64,000 bases of DNA, from NCBI GenBank assembly GCA_947574235.1, contig CANPIU010000001.1, forward strand, positions 23,185 to 87,184. The letters are read 5' to 3'. Below the pieces are notes generated by a model that was not told where the DNA came from, ran no database searches, and saw only the letters and a list, made by a program, of their open reading frames with translations. The first letter of the stretch is position 1. Every line of letters starts with the position of its first letter. Positions 16,868 to 20,133 of this stretch are shown in pieces. The stretch comes from an uncultured Clostridium sp. (GTDB lineage Bacteria; Bacillota; Clostridia; TANB77; CAG-508). The position numbers and the translations under genes are program-made.

Positions 16868-17557
16868 ATGAAAATAGAAATATACAATGAAGATTACAAA
16901 GAATTAATAAAGCGATTAAAAAAAGAAAAAACCAAAATCGATGCTATCATAACAGACCCACCATATAACGTAAGTAGAGACTACCAACTAGGCTTTTCAA
17001 ATATGGGAAGAAGTGGAATGGACTATGGGAAATGGGACTATGACTTTGACCAAAAAAAGTGGATTAAAGAGGTTTCAGACTTAATAAAGCCAGGAGGAAC
17101 TATCATTATTTTCAACGACTGGAAAAACTTAGGAGATATTTCGAAGCAACTTGAAAAATGTGATTTTACAGTAAAAGATATTATAAGGTGGGAAAAAAGA
17201 AATCCTATGCCAAGAAATGTAGAAAGAAGATATGTTACAGATTGTGAATTTGCCATATGGGGCGTAAAAAATGGAGGAAAATGGACATTTAATAAGCCAG
17301 AAGATATAGGCTATTTAAAACCAGTATTCACAACAGGAATTGTTCCAGGCGGGAAGAAAAGATTGCATCCAACGCAAAAACACTTAGAAGTAATGGAAAA
17401 TTTAATAAAAATTCATACCAATGAAGAAGATATCATATTAGACCCATTCTTAGGTTCTGGTACCACTGCTTTAGCATGTGTTAAAAATAATAGAGGTATT
17501 ATTGGTTCAGAAATAGATAAAGAGTATTATGAAGTAACTATGAGGAGATTAAAATGA
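16868..17557 (+). CDS. DNA methyltransferase, beta-class (N6A or N4C; motif IV before motif I)
   Basis: 229 aa; DPPY (ITDPPYN) near N-term, ILDPFLGSGTT near C-term; stop overlaps next start. Confidence 0.75.
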   Translation: MKIEIYNEDYKELIKRLKKEKTKIDAIITDPPYNVSRDYQLGFSNMGRSGMDYGKWDYDFDQKKWIKEVSDLIKPGGTIIIFNDWKNLGDISKQLEKCDFTVKDIIRWEKRNPMPRNVERRYVTDCEFAIWGVKNGGKWTFNKPEDIGYLKPVFTTGIVPGGKKRLHPTQKHLEVMENLIKIHTNEEDIILDPFLGSGTTALACVKNNRGIIGSEIDKEYYEVTMRRLK

Positions 17558-20133
17558 TAAATTCGCCATTAAACTATACAGGAAACAAATTCAAATTATT
17601 GAAGCAAATAATGCCATATCTAAACAACGAGGCAAACAAATTTGTAGACGTATTTGCAGGAAGTGGATTAGTAGGGCTAAATAGTGATTGTCAAGAGATA
17701 ATCTTGAACGATAACAACGATATAACTATAGAGCTTTTAACTTATTTTAAAGAAAACACTGCTGATGATATTATTAAGGCAATAGATAAGATAATTAAAG
17801 AATATGGCTTTACAGATACCTATCGAAAAGGAAATCAAGCTTATAGAGAAGAAAAACATGAAGGACTATCAAGATATAATAAAGAGGCCTTTAACCGATT
17901 AAAAGATGATTATAATCATAAACCTTCCATAGAAAAATTATTTGCATTAACAATCTATGGATTTAACCATTATATTCGATTTAATGCAAAAGGAAATTAT
18001 AATGTACCAGTTGGAAAAGTAGATTATTCTAACTCCTTAAGAGAAAAAACTAAAGAATATACAGAAGCTTTCAAAAAAAAGAAAGTACAAATACTAAACT
18101 ATGATTTTAGAGATAAGAATTTATATCAAGATACAGAAGCAATTTATTATTTTGACCCGCCTTATTTGATAACAGAGGCACCTTACAATAATAAATGGAA
18201 CGAAGAAGACGAAAGAGCCTTATTACAATTGTTAGATGATTTAAACAAAAGGAATATTAAATTTGCTTTATCCAATGTACTAGAATCTAACGGAAAAGAA
18301 AATAAATTGTTAAAGGCTTGGTGTACGAAATATAATGTATGGAATATGGATAGAAAATATTTGAATGCTAATTATAGAAAGAAAAATATCACAATAGCAA
18401 AAGAAGTATTAATAACAAATTACCAGAAACAGGAAAGGGAAGAAGTAAAAATGGGAACAAGTGGAAACAATCCAGGATACAAAGTTTTTTCTATTAGCAC
18501 GACGGTTAGAAATCCAAGAAGAAATACAGAATTTCTAGAGGTATTGAAGGAGTTTAATCATGAAGAATTAACGGTGGAAGTAAAAAATAAGATATATGCA
18601 GAATTAATTAGAAGAGGAATTTACAAATTAAGCAAGTTAGCCAATAGAGTAAAAAAGAAATATCAAGAAAATATTTTACTATCTGATGAAGAAATCTTAG
18701 AAATGATACGTCAAAATCCACAAAGAACAGGTAATGCAGGAAGAGTTATGACACAAATACGTGCCCTTAAAGATACAGGACTTGTTAATTTAATTGGAAA
18801 AAGAAACAAAAAGACTTTGGAGATAACTCCACTAGGAGAAAAGCTTTTAAATCGTGAAAAAGTAGAAGATATTTATGCCAAAGCAATGATTGGATTGCAT
18901 GCTAACAACCCTCAAAGAACAACTATTTACAATGAAGCAAGGCCATTTCTAAACACCTTATTTACCATTAATGGAATAAATCGTATAGAAGGAACGAAAA
19001 AAGGAATCTTGTGGCATGAATTTGCTGTTTTTGTACTTTCCATGAGAGACTGTGATTACCAAAAGATAGTAAATGAAATTATGACTTATAGAGAAAAGTA
19101 TGGAAAAGAAATTAAGCAAGAATATTTAGAGAATTATCTATACAACCAAGTTTATGTAAATGAAATCGAATTTGAAAGTATATTGCAAGACTATGCTGAT
19201 GATGTGTATAGAAAATTCAATATGACAGGATTACTAGACAAATCTGGTTTTGGAAATAATGTTTATATTAGATTTAACGAGTACAATTTAAGTAAAGTAA
19301 AAGTCATATTAAAGGAATATGCAAACTATGAATTTAAAAAGTTCAGTAATACAGAAGAATATACAGAATTTTTAACCAATATTGTATTGCCATGGCAAGT
19401 ATCAGATAACATAAAAGAACAGATGATTCAAGAAAAAAAGAACGTGCTTGGTGTTACGATTGATGAAGGAGAGTCTTTAGATGAACAAATAGAAAAATTA
19501 GATAGTATTTATCATAAGAAATTATTTGAGGCGTCAGTAGAAAAAATAGACATGGAAGTGATTAAAAAAGAATTACTGATACTAAGTAGAAATTTAAAGC
19601 AAAAATCTAAGTATGAGGAGATAACAGAAGCATTAAGACTAGAGTGGTTAATTGCATTAGCAACAGCTAAAATCTATGGTGCTAAATATGTAAAACCAAA
19701 TTTAACATTAGACCAAGAAGGAATACCTAAATCTTATGCTTCTGGTGGACTGGCAGATATTGAATTTATAACAGAAGAATTCTATTGTTTAATCGAAGTA
19801 ACGATGCAAAAAGACTATAAGCAACAAGAAAATAGTGAAACTACTTCTATTTCAGACCATTTAAGAGAATTAAATGTAAGTCAAGATAAATGCTCTTTGT
19901 TAATAGCACCAAGAATTCACCATAGAGTGGTAGATTATTTTAATTATTGTATGGACAGAAACCAATTAGCAATTCTTGCTACTACCATTGAAAAATACAT
20001 AGAAATGCTAGAAAAAAATCAAACAGTACAAGCTTTTAAAGAGCAAATACAAGAAGTAACTAAAGAAATGGTAAAAACAGATATTATGGAATATTGTGAT
20101 GAGATTAATAATTATAGAATGAATACAGAATAA
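17554..20133 (+). CDS. fusion protein: Dam-like (D12 class) N6-adenine MTase N-terminal domain + AlwI-family Type IIS restriction endonuclease C-terminal domain
   Basis: 859 aa; LNYTGNKFKLL, FAGSG, FDPPY in first ~300 aa; from MGTSGNNPGYKVFSISTTVRNPRRNTEFLEVLKEF onward resembles RE_AlwI N-terminus; no stop codon between domains. Confidence 0.5.
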   Translation: MINSPLNYTGNKFKLLKQIMPYLNNEANKFVDVFAGSGLVGLNSDCQEIILNDNNDITIELLTYFKENTADDIIKAIDKIIKEYGFTDTYRKGNQAYREEKHEGLSRYNKEAFNRLKDDYNHKPSIEKLFALTIYGFNHYIRFNAKGNYNVPVGKVDYSNSLREKTKEYTEAFKKKKVQILNYDFRDKNLYQDTEAIYYFDPPYLITEAPYNNKWNEEDERALLQLLDDLNKRNIKFALSNVLESNGKENKLLKAWCTKYNVWNMDRKYLNANYRKKNITIAKEVLITNYQKQEREEVKMGTSGNNPGYKVFSISTTVRNPRRNTEFLEVLKEFNHEELTVEVKNKIYAELIRRGIYKLSKLANRVKKKYQENILLSDEEILEMIRQNPQRTGNAGRVMTQIRALKDTGLVNLIGKRNKKTLEITPLGEKLLNREKVEDIYAKAMIGLHANNPQRTTIYNEARPFLNTLFTINGINRIEGTKKGILWHEFAVFVLSMRDCDYQKIVNEIMTYREKYGKEIKQEYLENYLYNQVYVNEIEFESILQDYADDVYRKFNMTGLLDKSGFGNNVYIRFNEYNLSKVKVILKEYANYEFKKFSNTEEYTEFLTNIVLPWQVSDNIKEQMIQEKKNVLGVTIDEGESLDEQIEKLDSIYHKKLFEASVEKIDMEVIKKELLILSRNLKQKSKYEEITEALRLEWLIALATAKIYGAKYVKPNLTLDQEGIPKSYASGGLADIEFITEEFYCLIEVTMQKDYKQQENSETTSISDHLRELNVSQDKCSLLIAPRIHHRVVDYFNYCMDRNQLAILATTIEKYIEMLEKNQTVQAFKEQIQEVTKEMVKTDIMEYCDEINNYRMNTE

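What the first reader, a model, noticed from the sequence alone, without database searches (positions are those of the whole stretch)
16868..20133. Type IIS system with two methyltransferases, the second fused in-frame to an AlwI-family endonuclease
A beta-class MTase (229 aa) overlaps by 4 nt a gene whose first ~300 aa are a Dam-like alpha-class MTase (NYTGNK, FDPPY). The remainder matches the N-terminus of AlwI-family Type IIS enzymes (MGTSGNNPGYKVFSISTTVRNPRR). There is no stop codon between the domains. Two MTases suit an asymmetric Type IIS site. An M2-R polypeptide fusion is unusual for this family and would couple one strand's methylation to cleavage in a single protein.
Basis: partly seen in the sequence, partly recalled or inferred. 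Interest (0 to 1): 0.55.

Follow-up and report, generated by a model that had tools for sequence, protein, structure and literature searches.

The report
Methylase fused to AlwI-type restriction enzyme
This is a working-looking Type IIS restriction-modification operon in which loss of one stop codon has joined the second methylase to the restriction enzyme; the join is real and recurs in nature, but it flips on and off by single-base changes, so it is an ordinary and mildly instructive variant rather than a new kind of system.

Summary
M1 (16868-17557, 229 aa, beta-class N6-MTase) overlaps by ATGA a stop-free 859-aa ORF (17554-20133). That ORF joins a T4-Dam-like alpha-class MTase (residues 1-290) through a 9-residue linker to a complete AlwI/Nt.BspD6I-type Type IIS endonuclease (residues 300-859).

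It is not a sequencing error. The identical protein is on record in three independent public sources. A 92% ortholog is also fused, and both halves are under strong purifying selection (dN/dS 0.05-0.15).

The M1-M2-R cassette occurs in many phyla and is usually unfused. M2's stop is followed by a short spacer with a ribosome-binding site and R's ATG, often in frame. Fusions arose at least six times by loss of that stop. Within one 90%-identity cluster, fused (GAG ATG) and unfused (TAG ATG) forms differ by one base.

Every fused gene keeps the internal Met and a Shine-Dalgarno-like tract, so free R is probably still made.

Best reading: a functional Type IIS system carrying a tolerated, labile M2::R fusion, formally Type IIC. 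It is the natural counterpart of the engineered RM.Eco29kI. I found no evidence that the coupling is adaptive. The recognition site is undetermined. Novelty: new variant of a known kind. Interest is moderate to low.

The parts
16754..16780 (+). Terminator-like hairpin followed by a T-run, between the upstream PLD-nuclease gene and M1. It probably marks the 5' boundary of the R-M transcription unit.
   Evidence: Consensus scan, (11-pair stem, T-rich tail). This is a pattern match only.
16868..17557 (+). M1: a 229-aa beta-class N6-adenine DNA methyltransferase, presumed to methylate one strand of the asymmetric site.
   Evidence: PF01555 E 3e-41. About 52% identical over its full length to the solved M1.HpyAVI, 5HFJ/5HEK, E 5e-69. 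Conserved as the first gene of the cassette in about 20 loci.
17554..18423 (+). M2 domain of the fusion (residues 1-290): a Dam/T4Dam-like alpha-class N6-adenine methyltransferase. Its start overlaps the M1 stop in ATGA.
   Evidence: PF02086 E 3e-30 and TIGR00571. T4 Dam E 5e-39 by sequence and TM 0.84 by fold. It ends in ...KEVLITNY, exactly where unfused 290-aa homologs stop. dN/dS is 0.046 against the 92% ortholog.
18424..18450 (+). Linker QKQEREEVK (residues 291-299), derived from the former stop codon plus the intergenic spacer. CAG 18424-18426 sits where relatives have TAG/TAA/TGA. The purine tract 18432-18445 (GGAAAGGGAAGAAG) is a weakened Shine-Dalgarno remnant.
   Evidence: DNA alignment with unfused L001/L002 and the junction table. 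AF2 pLDDT is about 34 for residues 292-304. Anti-SD duplex energy is -5.5 kcal/mol, against -1.6 +/- 2.2 for internal in-frame ATGs.
18451..20133 (+). R module (residues 300-859): a complete AlwI/Nt.BspD6I-type Type IIS endonuclease. The retained ancestral start codon is at 18451-18453, so this is probably also an independent 560-aa translation product.
   Evidence: PF09491 E 2e-38. 69% identical to unfused 557-aa proteins from their residue 1. Foldseek aligns about 630 columns to Nt.BspD6I, E 1e-17. dN/dS is 0.06-0.15.
19636..20103 (+). C-terminal PD-(D/E)XK-like cleavage domain of R (about residues 695-850), with family-invariant E697, D735, E748 and E762.
   Evidence: The R-domain profile hits the R.BspD6I small (catalytic) subunit 2P14, E 4e-10. 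The residues are invariant in 74 sequences. The spacings 38/13/14 match E418/D456/E469/E482 of Nt.BspD6I. Those residue numbers come from memory, partly supported by the PDB entry titles 'D456A' and 'E418A'.

Best explanation
This is a functional three-activity Type IIS restriction-modification operon of the AlwI/Nt.BstNBI endonuclease family.

M1 (beta-class) and the M2 domain (Dam-like alpha-class) each N6-methylate adenine on one strand of an asymmetric site. The R module binds the unmethylated site through its own N-terminal recognition domain. It cuts nearby with a single C-terminal PD-(D/E)XK-like site, most likely after transient dimerisation as in AlwI and MlyI.

In this lineage the stop codon ending M2 was replaced by a sense codon (TAG to CAG) and the short spacer came into frame. 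The ribosome therefore reads on and makes an 859-aa M2::R polypeptide: two autonomous modules joined by a disordered tether of about 10 residues. By nomenclature this is a Type IIC enzyme, with a separate companion MTase.

R's original ribosome-binding tract and ATG survive inside the linker, so a free 560-aa R is probably still produced.

The fusion is an evolutionarily easy, recurrent and reversible variant that the system tolerates. It is not a new mechanism.

Shown: the architecture, its reality, its recurrence, its lability, and purifying selection on both halves. Inferred: both activities reside in the long form, internal initiation occurs, cleavage needs a dimer, and each MTase handles one strand. 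Unknown: the recognition sequence.
For: Architecture:
- Pfam, NCBIfam and PDB sequence matches.
- AF2 model with pLDDT 84 and a disordered linker at 292-304.
- Fold matches to full-length Nt.BspD6I (E 1e-17) and T4Dam (TM 0.84).

Reality:
- The identical protein is on record in ENA, Logan and NCBI sources.
- A 92% ortholog is fused in two further samples.

Function retained:
- dN/dS against that ortholog is M2 0.046, R N-terminal half 0.060 and R C-terminal half 0.146, with dS 0.39-0.56. The linker is relaxed at 0.44.
- Catalytic and AdoMet motifs are intact.

Origin by stop loss:
- Unfused relatives have ...NY-stop, then a spacer of about 4-20 nt that carries a Shine-Dalgarno sequence outside the Bacteroidales, then ATG-G-[TR]-SGN. 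This is in frame in 6 of the unfused loci.
- The window carries CAG where L001 has TAG.

Recurrence:
- Fused proteins sit at six separate positions among 104 unfused ones in an R-domain tree, each with a different junction sequence.
- A further fusion, P0212, lies in a distant clade.
- The window and P0002 share 85%-identical M2 but only 47%-identical R.

Lability:
- L021 (fused) reads GAG GAC GAG ATG. L091 and L092 (unfused) read GAG GAC TAG ATG, although L091/L092 encode a member of the fused P0016's 90% cluster and L021 is a close fused relative of that clade.

Internal start:
- All 20 fused proteins examined keep a Met in the linker.
- In the largest fused clade the residues before the Met (S-E-D/E-E/D, encoding GAGGA) are conserved while those after it vary.
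- Anti-SD energies are -5.5 to -9.3 kcal/mol, against a background of -1.6 +/- 2.2.

Precedent:
- An engineered stop/start-to-Gly fusion of Eco29kI R and M is bifunctional (PMC3039593).
- AlwI and MlyI are monomers that dimerise on DNA (PMC3017599).
Against: No biochemical or methylome data exist for this protein or any fused relative.

The window's internal Shine-Dalgarno tract is the weakest of the fused set (-5.5 kcal/mol) and the spacer has grown from 13 to 27 nt. Internal initiation may therefore be inefficient here, and the long form may be the main or only source of R.

The extreme N-terminus of R (G-T/R-SGN..GYKVFSI.TT.RNP.RN) is among the most conserved segments of the family and lies directly after the tether. 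An N-terminal fusion could impair R.

Purifying selection measured on the whole gene cannot tell whether the long or the short product carries R activity.

The tree is a simple neighbour-joining tree. Some of the 'independent' fusions could instead be fissions from fused ancestors.
Confidence: 0.65

Rival explanations
1. Adaptive coupling. The fusion is selected because it ties R synthesis to M2 synthesis 1:1 and N-to-C. R can then never appear without protective methylase. This would help when the cassette enters a new host, or would damp self-restriction.
For: - The fusion arose repeatedly and persisted through substantial divergence in at least one clade. The P0011-P0032 clade holds 9 fused clusters, and dS is saturated between the fused L003 and the independently fused L009.
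- Type IIC polypeptides are argued to pass through an M+R- monomeric phase (PMC12707154).
- The engineered RM.Eco29kI keeps 80% of MTase activity but only about a third of REase activity (PMC3039593), which is an attenuated and safer enzyme.
Against: - Most cassettes are unfused: 104 of 121 close clusters.
- Fused and unfused alleles coexist within one 90% cluster and differ by a single base.
- Unfused sequences nest inside the fused clade (P0103, P0128).
- All fusions keep R's own ribosome-binding site and ATG, which would defeat strict coupling.
- M1, which is equally needed for protection, stays separate.
Confidence: 0.2
2. Two-isoform regulation. The long M2::R form is methylase-active but nuclease-masked, because its conserved R N-terminus is blocked. 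Only internally initiated R cuts. The ratio of read-through to internal initiation then sets the M:R balance.
For: - The internal Met and the upstream GAGGA-like tract are conserved while the following linker residues vary.
- The R N-terminal motif is conserved from residue 2 onwards.
- The tether is short, about 10 residues, and disordered.
Against: This is purely inferential. The retained start could be simple inheritance in young fusions, and toggling shows low constraint. Nothing is known about the role of the R N-terminus. The window's Shine-Dalgarno tract is weak.
Confidence: 0.12
3. Assembly or sequencing artefact, or a decaying pseudogene. On this reading the fusion is a base-call error or the first step of R-M inactivation.
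For: - The junction is A-rich, and an out-of-frame TAA lies at 18446-18448.
- One fused relative (L021) has a frameshift inside R, which shows that such cassettes do decay.
Against: - The identical ORF is on record in three independent sources, and a 92% ortholog with 0.4-0.56 synonymous substitutions per site is still fused.
- dN/dS is 0.05-0.15 in both domains.
- All catalytic and cofactor motifs are intact.
Confidence: 0.03

Closest known systems
AlwI / EacI / GmeI Type IIS R-M systems (GGATC)
   Same: They share an AlwI-family endonuclease, two adenine MTase activities (one per strand), tight head-to-tail gene packing, and gene fusion within the operon (PMC4081073, PMC3526280).
   Different: In those systems the two MTases are fused to each other and R is separate. 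Here M1 is separate and M2 is fused to R. Here the MTase pair is beta plus alpha. According to PMC12898733, the AlwI-family systems examined there (mycoplasmas and Streptococcus uberis) carry a 'DNA adenine methylase'-Dam pair instead. R is only distantly related: no phmmer hit to Nt.BspD6I, and about 30% identity to plasmid AlwI-family genes. The recognition site here is unknown.
Nt.BstNBI / Nt.BspD6I, MlyI, PleI (GAGTC)
   Same: The whole-protein fold is the same: a FokI-like DNA-binding domain plus a C-terminal cleavage domain (Foldseek E 1e-17 over about 630 columns). The acidic catalytic residues have the same spacing.
   Different: Sequence identity is only 18-20%. No small catalytic subunit gene lies downstream. 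MlyI has a single GASTC MTase (PMC4081073). None of these has an MTase fused to R.
Engineered RM.Eco29kI (Mokrishcheva et al. 2011, PMC3039593)
   Same: A head-to-tail bipartite Type II R-M pair is converted to one bifunctional polypeptide simply by removing the stop/start boundary. Each half keeps its own DNA-recognition apparatus. The authors predicted that natural equivalents exist.
   Different: That fusion is artificial. Its order is R then M, with a GIY-YIG nuclease and an m5C MTase on a palindromic site, and no internal start is retained. The window is a natural fusion in the order M then R, is Type IIS, and has a third (M1) gene.
Classical Type IIC/IIG enzymes with a companion MTase (Eco57I, BseMII)
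   Same: One polypeptide carries both R and M, alongside a separate MTase, and acts on an asymmetric site with cleavage at a distance (table in PMC3039593).
   Different: From my own knowledge: those have an N-terminal nuclease followed by a gamma-class MTase, share one target-recognition domain, and show AdoMet-dependent cleavage. Here an N-terminal alpha-class MTase with its own TRD precedes a complete endonuclease with its own recognition domain.
MhoVII of Mycoplasma hominis (PMC12898733)
   Same: It has the same pairing of a small beta-class (YhdJ-like) MTase followed by a D12 alpha-class MTase, methylating complementary strands of an asymmetric site (GATG/CATC). It also shows fusion of adjacent genes in the operon.
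   Different: There the fusion is M1-M2, and the R belongs to a different family (not AlwI).

Membership tests
AlwI-family Type IIS restriction endonuclease | Significant match to the RE_AlwI profile (PF09491) | tested here: met
   E 1.9e-38, 133 bits against a cut-off of 23.1, residues 415-817.
AlwI-family Type IIS restriction endonuclease | Two-module fold: an N-terminal FokI-like DNA-binding region plus a C-terminal single-site cleavage domain, as in Nt.BspD6I | tested here: met
   The AF2 model (pLDDT 84) aligns to Nt.BspD6I over about 630 columns, E 1e-17, probability 1.0. The R-domain profile hits the catalytic subunit 2P14, E 4e-10.
AlwI-family Type IIS restriction endonuclease | Conserved acidic catalytic residues (E...D-x12-E-x12/13-E) | tested here: met
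   E697, D735, E748 and E762 are invariant in 74 sequences. Correspondence to Nt.BspD6I E418/D456/E469/E482 is inferred from the spacing.
AlwI-family Type IIS restriction endonuclease | Asymmetric recognition sequence with cleavage a few bases outside it | not testable with these tools
   Needs enzyme assays. The family is known to include GGATC, GAGTC and GCATC specificities (PMC4081073, PMC9799307).
Type IIS R-M system with two strand-specific methyltransferases | Two MTase activities encoded next to R in one operon | tested here: met
   M1 and M2 overlap by ATGA and M2 is joined to R. The gene order M1-M2-R is conserved in about 20 loci.
Type IIS R-M system with two strand-specific methyltransferases | Each MTase methylates a different strand of the same asymmetric site | not testable with these tools
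   Needs a SMRT or nanopore methylome, or expression of each MTase alone.
Type IIC (R and M activities in one polypeptide; nomenclature class) | A single uninterrupted polypeptide containing both an MTase and a REase domain | tested here: met
   859-aa ORF with no stop, reproduced in independent assemblies.
Type IIC (R and M activities in one polypeptide; nomenclature class) | Both activities demonstrated in that polypeptide | not testable with these tools
   There is only indirect support: purifying selection on both halves.
Classical Type IIG/IIC enzymes (Eco57I/MmeI-like) | N-terminal nuclease, a gamma-class MTase and one shared target-recognition domain | tested here: not met
   The order is MTase then nuclease. 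The MTase is alpha-class D12. R has its own full DNA-binding region. It is therefore not a member of this lineage.
Dam (D12, alpha-class) N6-adenine MTase family | D12 profile match, FxGxG before DPPY, and a T4Dam-like fold | tested here: met
   PF02086 E 3e-30. T4Dam E 5e-39. TM 0.84.
Dam (D12, alpha-class) N6-adenine MTase family | GATC specificity | tested here: inconclusive
   The equivalents of T4Dam K11 and R116 are kept (K12, R142), but R130 is Val156 (alignment; the roles of these residues are from memory). GATC is strongly depleted in the window (o/e 0.13). GGATC is not depleted further, and hosts of the cassette vary in GATC depletion.
M1.HpyAVI-like small beta-class N6-adenine MTases | Full-length similarity and the beta motif order (DPPY N-terminal, FxGxG C-terminal) | tested here: met
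   E 5e-69 and about 52% identity over 226 residues to 5HFJ. Whether specificity is shared was not determined.

The most novel reading that the evidence does not exclude
The fused gene is a natural two-isoform device. Read-through from M2 gives a long M2::R protein whose nuclease is masked or attenuated by the N-terminal tether. The conserved internal ribosome-binding site and ATG give free, active R. Single-base stop/sense toggling at the junction then tunes the methylase-to-nuclease balance. It would act as a heritable switch between 'safe' and 'aggressive' states of a mobile Type IIS system.
Probability: 0.12. Interest if true: 0.6.

Novelty: new variant of a known kind. Interest (0 to 1): 0.36.

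Why it matters
R-M enzymology has long proposed that bifunctional Type IIC enzymes arose by fusing adjacent R and M genes. The supporting experiment was an artificial Eco29kI fusion, and its authors predicted that natural counterparts exist (PMC3039593).

This cassette family supplies them. It contains complete, independently folding MTase and Type IIS endonuclease modules joined by nothing more than a lost stop codon. This happened several times, and fused and unfused alleles a single base apart are still segregating.

That gives a ready-made isogenic pair (CAG or GAG versus TAG) for three tests. Does covalent M-R linkage change restriction strength? Does it change self-toxicity? Does it change establishment in new hosts?

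On the practical side, a natural M::R enzyme with separate recognition modules could serve as a scaffold for methylation-based selection of new Type IIS or nicking specificities. It does not reveal a new defence principle.

Tried and rejected
1. Predicting the recognition site.
- k-mer statistics show GATC at o/e 0.13 in the window and 0.52 pooled over 20 cassette loci, with GAGTC at 0.64.
- GGATC is not depleted beyond GATC. Several hosts show no GATC depletion, and other palindromes are depleted as well. No assignment is possible.
- Homology does not settle it either. M2 is nearest T4Dam (GATC) but lacks the R130 equivalent. M1 is nearest M1.HpyAVI (which I recall as GAGG-type). The beta-plus-alpha pair resembles MhoVII (GATG/CATC). 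AlwI-family R enzymes are known for GGATC, GAGTC and GCATC.

2. phmmer of the protein, and an R-domain profile, against PDB sequences did not find the Nt.BspD6I large subunit. Only the fold search did.

3. The search of 50%-identity representatives was meant to count fused architectures. It mostly returned single-domain representatives and yielded one extra fusion, P0212, so no global frequency could be derived.

4. Literature searches for a described natural MTase::AlwI-family fusion found none. REBASE could not be queried, so predicted 'RM' entries may exist there.

5. I considered and rejected these alternatives:
- An alternative genetic code: the long ORFs across the window read cleanly with table 11.
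- A phase-variable repeat at the junction: only an A5 run is present.
- A controller (C) protein upstream: only a 19-codon ORF lies at 16628-16684, although relative L003 does have an HTH gene.

6. In-frame placement of M2's stop relative to R's ATG occurs in 6 of about 16 unfused loci. This is not clearly above the one-third expected by chance.
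Full report

Yes. The ORF listing gives 16868-17557 (229 aa) and 17554-20133 (859 aa) on the + strand. The two overlap in ATGA.

The 229-aa protein matches PF01555 N6_N4_Mtase (E 3e-41). It has DPPY at residues 30-33 and FLGSG near residue 195, which is the beta-class order.

The 859-aa protein matches the D12/Dam family at residues 4-289 (PF02086 E 3e-30; TIGR00571 E 5e-32). FAGSG precedes FDPPY, the alpha-class order. It also matches RE_AlwI at residues 415-817 (PF09491, E 2e-38).

Residues 300 onward (MGTSGNNPGYKVFSISTTVRNPRR...) align from residue 1 with ordinary 557-562-aa AlwI-family proteins at up to 69% identity. 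The junction reads ...KEVLITNY-QKQEREEVK-MGTSG..., and the ATG is at 18451-18453.

**2. Is the fusion an artefact?**

No.
- The exact 859-aa sequence is on record in ENA, Logan and NCBI sources. The ENA and Logan contigs were read here.
- A 92%-identical ortholog (P0001) from two other samples is also fused.
- Between the window and that ortholog, synonymous divergence is substantial (dS 0.39-0.56). dN/dS is 0.046 for M2, 0.060 for the N-terminal half of R and 0.146 for the C-terminal half. The 10-codon linker is relaxed at 0.44.
- Both halves have therefore been held under purifying selection while fused.

**3. What are the parts?**

By sequence, M2 is closest to phage T4 Dam among solved structures (E 5e-39). 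M1 is about 52% identical over its whole length to H. pylori M1.HpyAVI (5HFJ/5HEK, E 5e-69).

An AlphaFold2 model built on a 74-sequence alignment has mean pLDDT 84. Two confident modules are separated by a disordered stretch at residues 292-304.

Foldseek aligns the C-terminal module over about 630 columns with the complete nicking endonuclease Nt.BspD6I (E 1e-17). It aligns the N-terminal module with T4Dam (target-normalised TM 0.84).

A profile of the R domain also hits the catalytic small subunit of R.BspD6I (2P14, E 4e-10).

E697, D735, E748 and E762 are invariant across 74 homologs. Their spacing matches the Nt.BspD6I active-site residues. I recall those residue numbers from the literature, and the PDB titles 'D456A' and 'E418A' agree.

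R is therefore a whole, apparently competent Type IIS enzyme with its own DNA-binding region. It is not a bare nuclease domain borrowing the MTase's specificity.

**4. How did the fusion arise?**

Genome and metagenome loci show that M1 (about 230 aa), M2 (about 290 aa) and R (about 560 aa) form a conserved cassette. It occurs in Clostridia, Bacilli, Christensenellaceae, Neisseriaceae, Campylobacter, Helicobacter, Bacteroidales, Alphaproteobacteria, Saccharibacteria and others.

The usual state is unfused. M2 ends ...N-Y/F-stop. A spacer of roughly 4-20 nt follows, carrying a Shine-Dalgarno sequence in the non-Bacteroidales loci, and then R's ATG. In six loci the ATG is in frame with M2, separated only by the stop.

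In the window the position of the stop is CAG (18424-18426), where the nearest unfused relative has TAG. The spacer is in frame.

Other fused genes have different junctions:
- P0002/L004 reads TAC AGA AAT GGA GGA GAT AAT ATT ATG.
- L009 has TAA changed to AAA.
- L003/L011 read AGT GAG GAA GAT ATG.

In a neighbour-joining tree of 121 R domains, the 17 fused proteins fall at six separate places among 104 unfused ones. A seventh fusion, P0212 (832 aa), lies in a distant, more canonical AlwI clade.

The window and P0002 share 85%-identical M2 but only 47%-identical R. That again argues for separate events or recombination.

The most telling case comes from one closely related set of loci. L091 and L092 encode P0128, a member of the 90%-identity cluster of the fused P0016. 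The fused allele of the close relative L021 reads GAG GAC GAG ATG, while the unfused L091/L092 read GAG GAC TAG ATG. That is one nucleotide.

The fused state is therefore recurrent, reversible and tolerated.

**5. Is R still made on its own?**

Probably.
- Every fused protein examined (20 of 20) keeps a Met in the otherwise variable linker.
- In the largest fused clade, the residues before that Met (S-E-D/E-E/D, encoding GAGGA) are conserved while those after it vary.
- Predicted pairing of the 18 nt upstream with the anti-Shine-Dalgarno sequence is -5.5 to -9.3 kcal/mol for fused genes. The background for 100 internal in-frame ATGs in this window is -1.6 +/- 2.2, and only 2% of those reach -6 or lower. 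Genuine gene starts here mostly fall between -6 and -13.
- The window's own value, -5.5, is the weakest of the fused set. The balance between the long and short products is therefore uncertain here.

**6. Mechanism**

Shown by sequence, structure and evolution: the operon encodes two adenine MTases of different classes and a complete AlwI-type endonuclease. One MTase is tethered to the endonuclease by about 10 disordered residues.

Inferred from knowledge of the family:
- M1 and M2 each methylate one strand of an asymmetric site (Type IIS logic, PMC4081073).
- R binds as a monomer and dimerises transiently through its cleavage domain to cut both strands, as do AlwI and MlyI (PMC3017599).
- No BspD6I-like small-subunit gene follows R. 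The next gene, 15 nt downstream, is a UvrD-like helicase-nuclease.

The long form would be a Type IIC enzyme by nomenclature. The engineered RM.Eco29kI shows that such simple fusions can retain both activities with reduced restriction (PMC3039593). A Type IIC polypeptide is also expected to be M+R- while monomeric (PMC12707154).

Whether the fusion brings any advantage is untested. Possible advantages are 1:1 coupling and attenuated restriction during establishment in a new host. The single-base toggling, the minority status of fusions and the retained internal start favour a near-neutral variant.

**7. Specificity**

Undetermined.

GATC is the most depleted tetramer in the window: 17 sites against about 135 expected, o/e 0.13. 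GGATC is not depleted further. Hosts of the cassette range from strong GATC depletion to none, and pooled GAGTC shows only a mild deficit.

M2 keeps the equivalents of T4Dam K11 and R116 but not R130 (the roles of these residues are from memory).

The family includes GGATC, GAGTC and GCATC enzymes (PMC4081073, PMC9799307). The same beta-plus-alpha MTase pairing methylates GATG/CATC in MhoVII (PMC12898733).

**8. Comparison with known systems, and novelty**

Known GGATC systems (AlwI, EacI, GmeI) fuse the two MTases and keep R separate (PMC4081073, PMC3526280). MlyI has one MTase. MhoVII fuses beta and alpha MTases next to an unrelated R.

Classical Type IIC/IIG enzymes have a nuclease followed by a gamma-class MTase with one shared TRD. 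That feature was tested here and is not met.

I found no paper describing a natural MTase::AlwI-family endonuclease fusion. Such proteins are already present, unnamed, in public databases, and REBASE could not be consulted.

I therefore rate this as a new variant of a known kind. It is a natural example of the fusion route to Type IIC enzymes that Mokrishcheva et al. modelled artificially. Interest is moderate to low.

**9. Context**

The cassette sits in a defence island.
- Upstream are SspD/BrxP-, SspB-, SspC- and SspA-like genes (4856-12093).
- These are followed by a PbeA-like helicase, an MzaB-like HATPase split into two ORFs, and a PLD nuclease.
- Downstream are a UvrD-PD-(D/E)XK helicase-nuclease, a 565-aa beta-class MTase, a 150-aa ORF and a 729-aa protein with a TnsA-like domain.
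- This downstream block travels with the cassette in the 92% ortholog's contigs, while the upstream genes differ.

Noticed in passing
window 4856-12093: A phosphorothioate-type modification gene set: a BrxP/SspD-like PAPS-reductase protein (4856-6592), SspB/DUF4007 (6596-7453), SspC (7456-10950) and an SspA/DndA-like cysteine desulfurase (10966-12093). The R-M cassette therefore lies in a dense defence island.
   Followed up: partly
window 12112-16599: Three genes sit between the Ssp genes and M1: a PbeA-like ResIII/DEAD helicase (12112-13854), an MzaB-like GHKL ATPase, and a PLD-family nuclease (15670-16599, with weak DrmC/ZacB hits). They may be the restriction arm of the Ssp system. I did not test this.
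   Followed up: partly
window 13820-15223 and 15183-15683: The GHKL-ATPase gene appears split into two overlapping ORFs in different frames (467 aa and 166 aa). Both hit different parts of the same HSP90-family model (PRK14083). This suggests a frameshift, either a pseudogene or a sequencing error.
   Followed up: no
window 20148-27328; also L087 10597-17780 and L088 5441-12624: Starting 15 nt after R is a block of four genes: a UvrD-like helicase fused to a PD-(D/E)XK/Cas4-like nuclease (955 aa), a 565-aa beta-class MTase, a 150-aa ORF, and a 729-aa protein with a C-terminal TnsA-like endonuclease domain. The block is conserved next to the M1-M2R cassette in the 92% ortholog's contigs although the upstream genes differ. 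It may be a second, uncharacterised methylase-linked defence system travelling with the cassette.
   Followed up: partly
whole window: GATC is extremely under-represented: 17 sites against about 135 expected from a maximal-order Markov model, o/e 0.13, z = -14. GGCC, CCGG and GCGC are also low. The + strand is strongly purine-rich (A 26745 vs T 18601; G 10991 vs C 7663), and nearly all genes are on that strand.
   Followed up: partly
P0059 (890 aa); L087 6219-7118 and L088 1063-1962: DUF5655 (PF18899) is associated with the cassette in two ways. It is fused to the C-terminus of an AlwI-family R in P0059. It is also a stand-alone 299-aa gene immediately upstream of M1 in the contigs of the 92% ortholog. 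Its role is unknown.
   Followed up: no
P0083 / P0084 (738 aa): AlwI-family endonucleases carry a C-terminal Peptidase_S24 (LexA/UmuD-like) domain. This is another unusual fusion in the family.
   Followed up: no
L021 6001-8624: A fused M2::R gene in an uncultured Clostridia MAG is broken by a frameshift inside R (417-aa and 464-aa pieces). This is a decaying copy of the fused form.
   Followed up: no
L015 221-3475 (Helicobacter sp. MAG): The same three genes occur in the order R-M1-M2 instead of M1-M2-R. In this arrangement an M2-to-R stop-loss fusion is impossible.
   Followed up: no
L003 5031-5240: A 69-aa HTH_26 protein lies just upstream of M1 in a fused-cassette locus and may be a controller (C) protein. 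The window has no equivalent, only a 19-codon ORF at 16628-16684.
   Followed up: no
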